From a virus (taxonomy: Duplodnaviria > Heunggongvirae > Uroviricota > Caudoviricetes), in the IMG/VR virus record IMGVR_UViG_2728369593_000014, positions 1 through 5,481 of that record: a stretch of DNA of 5,481 nt. One strand, given 5' to 3'. Under the pieces are notes generated by a model that was not told where the DNA came from, did no database searches, and worked only from the letters and a program-made list of their open reading frames with translations. The translations under genes and the position numbers were made by a program. This document shows, in pieces, positions 504 through 1,302 of this stretch (positions are counted from its first letter, which is position 1; each line of letters opens with the position of its first letter).

Positions 504-977
504 CTAGTTAATACACTGAGTGCGGATATATTCCTGCGCCCCTCCCACCTGCTTCTGCATTGTCATCAACCGTTCTCTGAGGATGAAATAATCCCGTTCA
601 GCGGTGTCTGCCAGTCGGGGGCCGGTTGCATTATCCACGCCGGAGGTGGTGGGGGCTTCACGCACGGAGCCTGGACAGGTGGCGTTGATCCGCAGGCGCT
701 TACGACCAGCGGCAACGTCAGCGCGAAGAGTTTCATTTTCAGCTCTCGCATCGGCTAATTCCCTCGAGTATTTTGCATCGAGCGCAGCAACATCGCGCTG
801 GCGCACCTGCATATCAGTAATGGTTGCGTTCGCCAGCTTCAGTTCACTGGCTTTGTTATCGCGCTGCGCTTTGTAGGTAATCGCGTTATCACGGTAATGG
901 TCTGTTGCCATCCACAGCGCACCACAGGCCACCAGCAGAATAACGATAAACGCGGAAAGCATTCGGTTTATGTTCAC
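504..977 (-). CDS. Rz: Rz, inner-membrane spanin subunit (i-spanin)
   Basis: 157-aa ORF; N-terminal TM segment followed by [69 protein letters not shown]...[21 protein letters not shown], closely paralleling lambda Rz as I recall it (…[15 protein letters not shown]…[20 protein letters not shown]…AERDYFTLRERLITMQKQ). The start codon is GTG at 977 overlapping the upstream stop (GTGA); an ATG at 962 is an alternative start. Confidence 0.9.
566..751 (-). CDS. Rz1: Rz1, outer-membrane lipoprotein spanin subunit (o-spanin), embedded in the +1 frame of Rz
   Basis: 61-aa [64 protein letters not shown]: signal peptide with lipobox (LVVSAC), proline-rich [14 protein letters not shown]…[10 protein letters not shown] motif as in lambda Rz1, wholly nested inside Rz in another frame. 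Confidence 0.85.
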
Positions 978-1105
978 CCCAGCAACCCCGACGAAGACAA
1001 CATCATCCAGGCCATGGAAAGAAAAAGAGCAACCAGCATTAGTGAAAATGAAATGCCGACAATTACACAGAGGATCTTCGCCAGCGTTATGAGTTTGTCT
1101 GACAT
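974..1105 (-). CDS. Small hydrophobic protein (43 aa, one predicted TM helix), translationally coupled to Rz
   Basis: Minus-strand ATG at 1105..1103 preceded by a strong Shine-Dalgarno sequence (AGGGAGGA, 6-nt spacer); product [43 protein letters not shown]; its stop TGA overlaps the Rz GTG start (GTGA). No recognisable homolog from memory. Confidence 0.55.
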
Positions 1106-1119
1106 GCTTAATCCTCCCT

Positions 1120-1302
1120 TCACGATTTCAACGCAATGACCAGTTTTGCCAGCCCATACAGCATCGGGGACACAGCAACACCGACCGCCACCCACTTAAT
1201 GGCAAAAGCCAGTGCTCTGCTGATGTCATCAGTTACAGGCGCTTTCAGTTCAAGGCCGTTTTTCATGGTCAACCTCAACAGAATTCGTTTATACTTCGCC
1301 AT
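1120..1302 (-). CDS. Small protein (60 aa) with basic N-terminus and hydrophobic C-terminal segment; first gene of a three-gene coupled set ending in Rz
   Basis: ATG at 1302..1300 preceded by GGGAGA (AAGGCAAGGGAGAAC-ATG); product [60 protein letters not shown]; its stop is followed immediately by the SD of the 43-aa ORF. The ORF-track start at 1335 is a GTG sitting in the terminator base and is less likely. Confidence 0.5.

What the first reader, a model, noticed from the sequence alone, without database searches (positions are those of the whole stretch)
974..1302. Two unannotated small membrane-protein ORFs inserted between endolysin and Rz, translationally coupled to Rz
Canonical lambdoid lysis cassettes run S-R-Rz/Rz1. 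Here R and Rz are separated by a terminator and two small ORFs of 60 aa and 43 aa, each with a strong SD (GGGAGA; AGGGAGGA). The stop of the first sits next to the SD of the second, and the second's stop overlaps the Rz start (GTGA). The 43-aa product is essentially a single TM helix, and the 60-aa product has a basic N-terminus with a hydrophobic C-terminal half. Because they sit beside a SAR endolysin and a pinholin, they may regulate lysis (antiholin- or releasin-like control of SAR-endolysin release), or they may be small toxic or immunity peptides carried as cargo.
Basis: partly seen in the sequence, partly recalled or inferred. Interest (0 to 1): 0.65.

Follow-up and report, generated by a model that had tools for sequence, protein, structure and literature searches.

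The report
Portable small membrane-peptide pair in lysis cassette

Summary
Both ORFs exist as described on the minus strand: A at 1302-1120 (60 aa, or 48 aa from M13) and B at 1105-974 (43 aa). They lie between a frameshifted SAR endolysin and Rz/Rz1. The SDs, the stop/SD adjacency and the GTGA overlap with Rz are all present.

They are genuine genes. Reading-frame lengths are invariant, dN/dS is 0.17 (A core) and 0.27 (B), and 990 of 5426 complete E. coli genomes carry the region. They are not unannotated: PGAP calls both "hypothetical protein", and they match PHROG 1115 and 4906.

New points:
- The hairpin upstream is the 5' boundary of a portable hairpin-A-(B) unit.
- The unit also sits in an unrelated cassette (two canonical holins, soluble GH108 endolysin, small lipoprotein).
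- A relatives follow tail-fibre genes in Salmonella.
- A's first 12 codons lack a coding signature.

A role specific to SAR endolysins or pinholins, such as a releasin, is therefore not supported. The best reading is late-expressed, membrane-active accessory peptides, probably affecting membrane energisation or lysis timing. Two weak leads remain: a conserved antisense promoter-like site aimed at the hairpin, and similarity of A's helix to pinholin TMD2. Function is untested.

The parts
1336..1368 (-). Intrinsic-terminator-like hairpin, with an A-run 5' and a T-run 3' so it could terminate in both directions. It forms the 5' boundary of the portable module.
   Evidence: Scored as terminator-like. 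Folds at -31.8 kcal/mol in context. The stem is kept in 12 sequence variants with compensatory upper-stem changes. Homology to other genomic contexts begins here. An analogous hairpin lies upstream of every A-like gene examined in L188, L190, L192 and L193.
1303..1335 (-). Conserved leader of ORF A, containing SD1 (GGGAGA, 1310-1305). A small stem may pair UUCU with the SD.
   Evidence: Nucleotide diversity is 0.084, against 0.20 in the hairpin and 0.36 upstream of it. The consensus fold pairs columns 51-54 with 73-76.
1120..1302 (-). ORF A, 60 aa from ATG 1302. An in-frame second start, M13, is at 1266-1264 with SD GAGG at 1276-1273, which would give 48 aa. The conserved core has the motif MKNGLE.xAPVTD.IS followed by a C-terminal TM helix ending ..ALKS.
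   Evidence: Matches phrog_1115 at E 2.6e-42. Annotated by PGAP as WP_001151823.1. Core dN/dS is 0.17 and the first 12 codons give about 1. The alignment shows invariant W37, G41, S45, Y49 and G50. AlphaFold predicts helices at 2-16 and 23-59. The best 19-residue window has KD 1.88.
974..1105 (-). ORF B, 43 aa: one strongly hydrophobic helix. SD AGGGAGGA at 1119-1112. Its stop TGA overlaps the Rz GTG.
   Evidence: Matches phrog_4906 at E 2.1e-23. Annotated by PGAP as WP_001280932.1. dN/dS is 0.27 overall and 0.25 between two clades about 65% identical. Predicted as a helix at 2-38 with pLDDT 88. KD is 2.89. It is always preceded by A in the loci sampled.
504..977 (-). Rz i-spanin, the gene downstream of B. 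The start is either GTG 977 (overlapping B's stop) or ATG 962 (the PGAP call). Rz1 is embedded at 566-751.
   Evidence: Rz matches PF03245 at 1.3e-48 and Rz1 matches PF06085. In sister cassettes an ATG-AAC-CGT (MNR...) start lies 7-10 nt after B's stop, and this is homologous to GTG-AAC here.
1459..1994 (-). SAR endolysin R, the upstream neighbour. In this window two 1-nt insertions give a stop at codon 7 (1976-1974).
   Evidence: Matches PF00959. Compared with the intact copy in L001.
1266..1378 (+). Hypothetical cis-antisense transcription unit. A promoter-like TGGTCA (1266-1271), 18 nt, TATACT (1290-1295) would start transcription near 1302 and run into the hairpin, ending in its T-run by about 1378. 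This is inferred and not shown.
   Evidence: It is the only sigma-70-like hit in 400-2200. It is present in all 40 unique variants, and the changes seen improve it (TATAAT, TGGACA). L193 has a nucleotide-conservation island here despite saturated synonymous divergence downstream. The 77-nt product would fold as a 5' stem-loop plus terminator, z = -2.55. Against: the hexamers are not clearly more conserved than the spacer, and the geometry is lost in L192 and weak in Salmonella.

Best explanation
ORF A and ORF B are genuine genes for very small inner-membrane peptides. A has a soluble N-terminal segment of about 25 residues followed by one moderately hydrophobic, Gly/Ala/Ser-rich C-terminal helix. 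B is essentially one very hydrophobic helix.

They form a portable unit made of a terminator-like hairpin, a leader, A and usually B. Recombination places this unit in an accessory slot of the phage late operon. The usual position is between the endolysin gene and the outer-membrane-step gene (Rz/Rz1 or a small lipoprotein).

The unit has no sense promoter and sits directly behind an intrinsic terminator. I therefore infer that it is transcribed mainly by Q-antiterminated late transcription, together with the lysis genes. I also infer that it is translated as a tightly packed chain A, B, Rz.

The most likely role is a non-essential, membrane-active accessory function at the end of the lytic cycle. 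That would mean altering inner-membrane energisation or holin triggering, and hence lysis timing or efficiency, independent of endolysin type.

Shown here: the gene status, the selection, the module boundaries, the genomic contexts and the gene spacing. Inferred: the expression timing, the translational coupling and the membrane or lysis role.
For: - Purifying selection and fixed frame lengths.
- Both peptides fall in PHROG families. PGAP calls them in 990 of 5426 complete E. coli genomes.
- The unit is present at 96% identity in phages propagated on K-12 and E. coli C.
- Module boundary at the hairpin in three contexts. The hairpin is kept with compensatory changes.
- Architectures found: S21-R(SAR)-[A-B | A-B2 | A-C49-A2 | A-A2 | A | A2]-Rz, and HolA-HolB-GH108-[A-B2 | A | A-C49-A2]-Lpp.
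- No sense-strand promoter in 400-2200.
- A's stop is followed by the next gene's SD and start within about 10-20 nt. B's stop is followed by the next start within 0-12 nt in every context.
- Predicted single helices and hydropathy.
- A's helix resembles the hole-forming TMD2 of the neighbouring pinholin more than shuffles do.
- Precedent: the prophage membrane peptide HokW assists lysis and phage release (PMC8621323).
Against: - No expression, localisation or phenotype data exist. No paper mentions these proteins.
- A relatives in Salmonella and in L193 lie after tail-fibre genes, not in lysis cassettes. That fits generic cargo as well as a lysis role.
- Related cassettes carry a different small ORF in this slot (L186, L187), so no single family is required there.
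- The similarity to pinholin TMD2 was found post hoc, has a low hhalign probability (16%) and is absent from distant family members.
- S, R and Rz are as intact as A and B across the loci sampled, so differential decay gives no information.
Confidence: 0.5

Rival explanations
1. Type I toxin-antitoxin-like unit. ORF A, alone or with B, would be a membrane toxin whose translation from SD1 is blocked by a cis-antisense RNA of about 75 nt. That RNA would start from a promoter inside A's codons 3-13 and end at the bidirectional hairpin. This explains why the hairpin always travels with A. After induction, strong late transcription would outrun the antisense RNA.
For: - The only promoter-like site in the region is antisense and points at the hairpin.
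- It is present in all 40 unique variants, and the changes seen improve it.
- A's first 12 codons are constrained at the nucleotide level but not at the codon level.
- L193 keeps this 40-nt island although flanking synonymous sites are saturated.
- In the GER2, L143 and L145 variants SD1 opens an 8-codon mini-ORF whose stop overlaps the GTG of A's frame. This is a coupling layout reminiscent of mok/hok.
- The predicted RNA has an sRNA-like fold.
- hokW-sokW is a precedent in Stx prophages.
Against: - The -35 matches only 4 of 6 with an 18-nt spacer.
- The hexamers are not significantly more conserved than the spacer (2 of 12 against 4 of 18 variable sites).
- The geometry is lost in L192 and weak in Salmonella.
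- No Rfam antitoxin family and no Pfam toxin family matches.
- No separate toxin promoter was found.
- The prophage sRNA surveys read here place their sRNA genes upstream of the holin or 3' of PR', and the passages retrieved mention none between R and Rz.
- Distant family members share a similar basic extension at the protein level, which suggests it is coding.
Confidence: 0.2
2. Generic cargo (moron) with a function for the lysogen or against competing phages, for example superinfection exclusion at the inner membrane. On this view it has nothing to do with lysis, and it sits in the lysis cassette only because that junction tolerates insertions.
For: - The unit is portable with sharp boundaries, and duplications, fusions and mix-and-match partners occur.
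- A relatives lie after tail-fibre genes near prophage ends, which is a classic cargo position.
- In this window A and B are intact although R is frameshifted and an IS element has been inserted nearby.
Against: - There is no promoter for expression in the lysogen, and a terminator lies directly upstream.
- No match to PADLOC defence models.
- In E. coli, about 175 of the 185 loci mapped, including the two reference records, place it inside a lysis cassette, on the same strand and tightly packed with the next gene.
Confidence: 0.2
3. One reading: an antiholin or releasin that controls membrane release of the SAR endolysin, or triggering of the S21 pinholin.
For: - Location next to a pinholin and a SAR endolysin in this window.
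- A's helix resembles pinholin TMD2 and aligns W37, G41, S45 and G50 with W33, G37, S41 and G45 of S21-68.
- A's two conserved in-frame starts recall holin/antiholin dual starts.
Against: - The same unit occurs with canonical holins and a soluble GH108 endolysin, and also outside lysis cassettes.
- No DUF2730 match and no cytoplasmic domain.
Confidence: 0.07
4. Only the act of translating the ORFs matters. They would be leader ORFs that deliver ribosomes to Rz, and the peptides themselves would have no function.
For: - Stop/start overlap or gaps of 4-12 nt with the downstream gene in every context.
- The PGAP Rz start at ATG 962 has no SD.
Against: - Amino-acid sequences are under purifying selection, with dN/dS of 0.17 and 0.27 and second codon positions almost invariant.
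- The unit also occurs where no Rz follows.
Confidence: 0.03

Closest known systems
PHROG families phrog_1115 (with phrog_4493 and phrog_3246) and phrog_4906; RefSeq WP_001151823.1 and WP_001280932.1
   Same: Direct membership. E-values are 2.6e-42 and 2.1e-23, and identical proteins are annotated in RefSeq.
   Different: These families carry no functional annotation, so membership says nothing about mechanism.
Phage Mu gp25 releasin (DUF2730)
   Same: A small membrane protein encoded a few genes downstream of a SAR endolysin (PMC9239132).
   Different: [quoted passage not shown] A and B are 43-60 aa with no such domain and no DUF2730 match. They sit in cassettes that have holins and also occur with a soluble endolysin.
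S21 pinholin (PF04971), especially its hole-forming TMD2, and holin/antiholin dual-start pairs such as S21-71/68 and lambda S107/S105
   Same: A's helix [16 protein letters not shown] aligns with [15 protein letters not shown] of the neighbouring pinholin, and small residues align with the glycine-zipper positions. A has two conserved in-frame starts. That TMD2 alone can form holes, and the dual-start logic itself, are from my own knowledge of the phage 21 and lambda literature.
   Different: There is no Pfam match and only one TMD instead of two. The third small residue is offset by one position. The similarity is restricted to one subfamily and was found post hoc. The extension is 12 residues, not 2-3, and it is acidic in the Salmonella relatives.
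hokW-sokW and other type I toxin-antitoxin loci of prophages
   Same: A small single-helix inner-membrane peptide in a lambdoid prophage, with a possible cis-antisense RNA over the ribosome-binding site and leader-ORF coupling in some variants. HokW assists lysis and phage release (PMC8621323).
   Different: No sequence or RNA-family match. No toxin promoter. The unit is embedded in the late operon rather than standing alone. The antisense RNA is only predicted.
Phage P2 lysA, an accessory membrane-protein gene between endolysin K and the spanin genes lysB/lysC (from my own knowledge; not checked in a paper here)
   Same: The same slot in the cassette, a non-essential membrane protein, and a reported effect on lysis timing.
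   Different: LysA is larger with several TMDs and has no sequence relationship. This was not tested here.

Membership tests
PHROG 1115 (A) and PHROG 4906 (B) | Significant match to the family profile over its full length | tested here: met
   A covers residues 1-60 against profile positions 8-67 of 67, E 2.6e-42. B covers 1-43 against 7-49 of 49, E 2.1e-23. The B2 variant also matches phrog_4906.
Mu gp25 releasin (DUF2730) | Match to Pfam DUF2730 over the whole length | tested here: not met
   The Pfam scan at E up to 1 returned nothing for A. For B it returned only a sub-threshold DUF3930 hit at E 0.08.
Mu gp25 releasin (DUF2730) | N-terminal TMD followed by a cytoplasmic domain of about 70 aa (N-out, C-in) | tested here: not met
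   A has its TM at the C-terminus with 4 residues after it. B is a single helix of 43 aa. The definition is from PMC9239132.
Mu gp25 releasin (DUF2730) | Required for release of a SAR endolysin in a phage that lacks a holin | not testable with these tools
   A pinholin is present in this window. The unit also accompanies a soluble GH108 endolysin.
Pinholin / Phage_holin_2_1 (PF04971) | Pfam match, and two TMDs of which the first is a SAR domain | tested here: not met
   No Pfam match and only one hydrophobic helix.
Pinholin / Phage_holin_2_1 (PF04971) | TMD2-like helix with a small-xxx-small (glycine zipper) face | tested here: inconclusive
   hhalign gives 17 columns at 53% identity with probability 16%. 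The SW score is 41 against shuffles at 21 +/- 4.3, p about 0.0004-0.002. Distant family members score 19-28.
Antiholin (functional class) | Binds the holin and delays triggering | not testable with these tools
   Needs genetics or biochemistry.
Type I toxin-antitoxin | Small hydrophobic single-TM peptide under 60 aa | tested here: met
Type I toxin-antitoxin | Antisense sRNA gene with its own promoter and terminator, overlapping or pairing with the toxin mRNA | tested here: inconclusive
   A promoter-like site is conserved in all 40 variants and aimed at a bidirectional terminator. However, it is weak, is not distinguishable from general conservation of the region, and is absent in L192.
Type I toxin-antitoxin | Match to a known toxin (Pfam) or antitoxin RNA (Rfam) family | tested here: not met
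Type I toxin-antitoxin | Toxicity on overexpression, relieved by the sRNA | not testable with these tools
   An experiment is needed.
Moron (independent cargo unit in a late operon) | Present or absent between otherwise similar genomes, with sharp boundaries | tested here: met
   L186 and L187 carry other ORFs in the same slot.
Moron (independent cargo unit in a late operon) | Own promoter upstream and terminator downstream, allowing expression in the lysogen | tested here: not met
   No sense promoter was found, and the terminator lies upstream of the unit. Only the L188 copy has a terminator after A.
Spanin (i-, o- or u-spanin) | A periplasmic domain long enough to bridge the envelope, or a lipobox | tested here: not met
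   Neither peptide has a lipobox or an extramembrane domain beyond about 25 residues. Rz and Rz1 are the downstream genes.
Known anti-phage defence proteins (PADLOC) | Match to a PADLOC model | tested here: not met

The most novel reading that the evidence does not exclude
ORF A would be a minimal, single-helix mimic of the pinholin's hole-forming TMD2, made in two isoforms from a conserved dual start. The 60-aa form carries a basic extension and the 48-aa form has an acidic tail. A cis-antisense RNA would hold it in check, and that RNA's bidirectional terminator forms the module's 5' boundary. Together with B, the unit would be a portable lysis-clock modifier, a hybrid of a type I toxin-antitoxin and a holin accessory, able to plug into unrelated lysis cassettes.
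Probability: 0.1. Interest if true: 0.75.

Novelty: new member of a known kind. Interest (0 to 1): 0.42.

Why it matters
About one complete E. coli genome in five carries this exact unit, and many Stx and other lambdoid phages carry sister peptides in the same slot. No function is assigned to any of them.

If they tune membrane energisation or holin triggering, they would add an uncharacterised and interchangeable layer to the control of lysis timing. In Stx phages that also bears on the timing of toxin release.

If the antisense RNA is real, this would be a new type I toxin-antitoxin-like family embedded in a late operon.

Even on the modest reading, two points correct how such cassettes are read:
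- The hairpin belongs to the small gene, not to the endolysin.
- The unit is independent of endolysin and holin type.

Tried and rejected
- Pfam, NCBIfam and PADLOC scans of A, B and sister peptides gave no family. The one hit, DUF3930 at E 0.08 for B, is treated as noise.
- The PDB profile search gave only chance hits at E 0.13 or worse for A and none for B.
- AlphaFold models are simple helices, and Foldseek against BFVD returned nothing. Fold comparison cannot inform on single helices.
- The Rfam scan of the window at E up to 1 gave only a sub-threshold rimP-leader hit, which reflects the terminator.
- The genome-contig scan with the A profile found no confirmed locus.
- Literature searches by accession, PHROG id and peptide strings found nothing.
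- The test of differential decay of A and B against the lysis genes was uninformative, because nearly all genes are intact.
- The test of promoter hexamers against spacer conservation lacked power.
- ORF-level clustering of flanks was too noisy and was replaced by marker-based tblastn.
- A and B are not paralogues of each other. hhalign gives probability 3%.
- Rejected: the idea that A, B2 and the lipoprotein form a spanin substitute in the GH108 cassettes. None of them has a periplasmic domain long enough.
- Rejected: a + strand gene occupying the region, given the leader indels and the codon-position pattern.
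Full report
**What is in the window.** The lysis cassette lies on the minus strand. Its parts, in order:
- An S21-type pinholin at 2888-2682 (PF04971).
- A SAR-type lysozyme R at 1994-1459 (PF00959).
- An untranslated stretch of about 90 nt after the R stop.
- A terminator-like hairpin at 1368-1336.
- ORF A at 1302-1120 and ORF B at 1105-974.
- Rz at 977-504 (PF03245) with Rz1 embedded at 751-566 (PF06085).

The SD GGGAGA lies 3 nt before A's ATG. A's TGA is directly followed by AGGGAGGA, and B's ATG follows 6 nt after that. 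B's TGA overlaps a GTG that opens the Rz frame (GTGA).

**Are they genes?** An open frame alone means little here, because the window has 53 ORFs of at least 30 aa. Comparative data settle the question.
- The 511-nt region is found at 80% coverage or more in 990 of 5426 complete E. coli genomes. It is also found at about 96% identity in phages propagated on K-12 and E. coli C.
- PGAP already annotates both ORFs as hypothetical proteins, so "unannotated" is not correct for public records.
- Both match PHROG families of unknown function: phrog_1115 at E 2.6e-42 and phrog_4906 at E 2.1e-23.
- Across about 185 loci fetched from IMG/VR and GenBank, the A core is always 147 nt (28 unique sequences) and B is always 132 or 135 nt (26 unique sequences, two clades about 65% identical).
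- Nei-Gojobori dN/dS is 0.17 for the A core and 0.27 for B, against 0.5-4.3 in shifted frames.
- In the A core, second-codon-position diversity is 0.0009, against 0.084 at first and 0.097 at third positions.
- One-base indels in the leader would break the overlapping + strand ORF 1136-1516.

**Where does A start?** Codons 1-12 behave differently from the rest. Their dN/dS is about 1 and they show no codon periodicity, with diversity of 0.045, 0.096 and 0.076 by position. Radical replacements occur at codon 2 and at codon 6 (R, L or P).

M13 has its own SD, GAGG, 6 nt upstream. That SD is retained in Salmonella relatives even where the encoded residues differ completely (LLRLT against SVEAN). 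Many gene callers start the protein at M13. The conserved, selected product is therefore the 48-aa core.

On the other hand, an in-frame upstream start is retained in every arrangement seen. Most copies have ATG. Some have GTG preceded by an 8-codon mini-ORF whose stop overlaps it. Salmonella copies have other extensions. Distant family members also share a basic pattern of the form xY[KR][KR]hhRhRh. Both isoforms may be made. I leave this open.

**What the products look like.**
- A is predicted as a short helix (2-16, low confidence), a loop, and a long helix (23-59, pLDDT about 86).
- A's hydrophobic stretch is only moderately hydrophobic (KD 1.88) and rich in Ala, Gly, Val and Ser. Only 4 residues follow it.
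- B is a single helix at 2-38 with pLDDT 88 and KD 2.89.
- A profile search of 1.8 billion representative proteins found only 22 relatives of A. All are 20-90 aa, apart from two repeat-protein chance hits, and share MKNGLE.DAP plus a C-terminal TM. Some end in ..RWW.
- No match was found in Pfam, NCBIfam, PADLOC, the PDB or BFVD.

**The unit is portable, and the hairpin belongs to it.** Homology between the window and other contexts begins at the hairpin (window 1375 or 1368). It ends at A's stop in L083, or inside B in L089.

The hairpin occurs in at least four sequence versions. All keep a stem of about 9 bp through compensatory changes, an A-run on the 5' side and a T-run on the 3' side. 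More distant A-like genes in L188, L190, L192 and L193 each have their own hairpin directly upstream.

Marker-based mapping shows two unrelated cassette types that share one slot:
- S21-R(SAR)-[A-B | A-B2 | A-C49-A2 | A-A2 | A | A2]-Rz.
- HolA-HolB-GH108-[A-B2 | A | A-C49-A2]-Lpp.

In the second type HolA is Phage_holin_8, HolB is Phage_holin_3_7, and the endolysin is Glyco_hydro_108 + PG_binding_3 with no N-terminal TMD. Lpp is a 60-aa lipoprotein of unknown function (phrog_7528).

A third context places A between an Ig-like protein gene and the small terminase subunit (L083). Salmonella and metagenome relatives follow tail-fibre genes near prophage ends.

Duplications (A-B-B, A-B-A) and B::A fusion proteins also occur. 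In the loci sampled B is always preceded by A, whereas A occurs without B.

A function tied to SAR endolysins or pinholins is hard to reconcile with the GH108 and canonical-holin cassettes, or with the tail-fibre contexts.

[quoted passage not shown] Neither peptide meets those features.

**How it most likely works.** No sense-strand promoter is detected between R and Rz, and a conserved intrinsic terminator sits immediately upstream of A in every context. In a lambdoid late operon this predicts expression mainly from Q-antiterminated transcription, together with the lysis genes. This step is inferred.

Gene packing is tight in all contexts:
- A's stop is followed by the next gene's SD and start within about 10-20 nt.
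- B's stop overlaps the next start or lies 4-12 nt before it.
- In sister cassettes Rz begins ATG-AAC-CGT, 7-10 nt after B's stop. This is homologous to GTG-AAC here, which favours GTG 977 over PGAP's ATG 962. The latter has no SD.

Translational coupling is therefore plausible but not shown.

Given two single-helix peptides with almost no extramembrane mass, made late and independent of endolysin type, I favour a membrane-active accessory role. That would be modulation of inner-membrane energisation or holin triggering, and so of lysis timing or efficiency. I put this at about 0.5 for the broad statement and lower for any specific mechanism. HokW in Stx phage Sp5 is a precedent for a prophage membrane peptide that assists lysis and phage release (PMC8621323).

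**Two leads, both weak.**

The first is a possible antisense RNA.
- The only sigma-70-like site in 400-2200 is antisense to A: TGGTCA, 18 nt, TATACT at 1266-1295. It points at the hairpin, which is shaped to terminate in both directions.
- It is present in all 40 unique variants. The changes observed improve it: TATAAT through K3N, and TGGACA in GER2.
- In L193 the same 40 nt are almost unchanged, although the leader and the synonymous sites downstream have diverged.
- The 77-nt product would cover SD1 and A's start codon, and folds like an sRNA.
- This would explain why the hairpin travels with A and why codons 1-12 are constrained as nucleotides.

Against it:
- The promoter is weak.
- Within E. 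coli the hexamers are not clearly more conserved than the spacer.
- The geometry is lost in L192 and poor in Salmonella.
- The prophage sRNA surveys read here place their sRNA genes elsewhere, and the passages retrieved mention none between R and Rz.

The second lead is similarity to the pinholin. A's helix ([16 protein letters not shown]) aligns with TMD2 of the neighbouring pinholin ([15 protein letters not shown]). Invariant W37, G41, S45 and G50 fall opposite W33, G37, S41 and G45. From memory, those pinholin positions form its glycine zipper.

The score exceeds composition-matched shuffles (41 against 21 +/- 4.3, p about 0.0004-0.002). However, the comparison was made post hoc, the hhalign probability is 16%, and distant family members do not share the similarity.

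**Novelty and verdict.** The genes are already catalogued but uncharacterised, and no paper mentions them. Small accessory membrane proteins in lysis cassettes, and cargo units in late operons, are known kinds of thing. I file this as a new member of a known kind.

What the analysis adds:
- A defined unit made of hairpin, leader, A and usually B.
- Independence from the type of holin and endolysin.
- An uncertain dual start for A.
- The possible antisense RNA.

Interest is moderate. The family is very common in E. coli, including pathogenic lineages, and is directly testable, but nothing so far shows an unusual mechanism.

Noticed in passing
window 1459-1994 (-), especially 1970-1976: The SAR endolysin gene carries two single-base insertions relative to the intact copy in L001. 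These create a TAA at codon 7 (1976-1974). The next in-frame ATG (1875) would remove the SAR domain, so R looks like a pseudogene in this window.
   Followed up: yes
window 1-330 (+) and 325-498 (-): The 3' end of an IS3-family transposase (rve_3/rve_2) abuts the cassette. It appears to truncate the small ORF downstream of Rz, which is 57 aa here and 74 aa in L001. A relative of that ORF (phrog_2571) follows the lipoprotein in the GH108 cassettes.
   Followed up: partly
window about 3050-3335 (+): Two + strand terminator-like hairpins (about 3147-3190 and 3293-3335), each preceded by TTGACA (3068 and 3236), lie between the DUF6645 esterase fragment and the holin. This is the position where PasA/PasC and anti-sRNA genes are reported in lambdoid prophages. 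No Rfam hit was found, and identity with those sRNAs was not checked by sequence.
   Followed up: partly
window 2112-2426 (+): A 104-aa ORF lies on the opposite strand between holin and endolysin. It matches phrog_1853 at E 3.5e-47 with unknown function, and has no Pfam match. It is annotated as hypothetical in L001.
   Followed up: partly
L089 1068-3909 and about 70 similar loci: The cassette Phage_holin_8 + Phage_holin_3_7 + GH108 endolysin shows no Rz/Rz1-like spanin within the DNA held. A 60-aa lipoprotein (phrog_7528, four Cys in the mature part) occupies the position Rz has in the window.
   Followed up: partly
L186 2636-2809; L187 (GER2) 2733-2846: Stx1a-converting phages and GER2 keep the same hairpin after R but carry a different short single-TM ORF ending ..IRWW* that abuts the Rz start. 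The L186 record has no annotation in this stretch. The GER2 copy is a distant member of the A family.
   Followed up: partly
window 1399-1459 (-) and L089 3534-3594: The 60 nt directly after the R stop recur at 77% identity downstream of the lipoprotein gene in the GH108 cassette. The hairpin-A-B unit has therefore been placed on different sides of this segment in the two cassette types.
   Followed up: no
window 1303-1335 (-): The conserved leader can form a small stem that pairs UUCU with A's SD, around a CCUU/AAGG hairpin. This may sequester the ribosome-binding site. Covariation support is minimal.
   Followed up: no
window 3334-5059 (-): Further prophage remnants lie upstream of the holin: two DUF6645 fragments (3334-3708 and 4176-4829), DUF826 (3617-3808), DUF1378 (3846-4028, a 60-aa single-TM protein) and DUF1737 (4826-5059). 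L001 annotates several of the equivalents as incomplete. This is consistent with a degraded prophage.
   Followed up: partly
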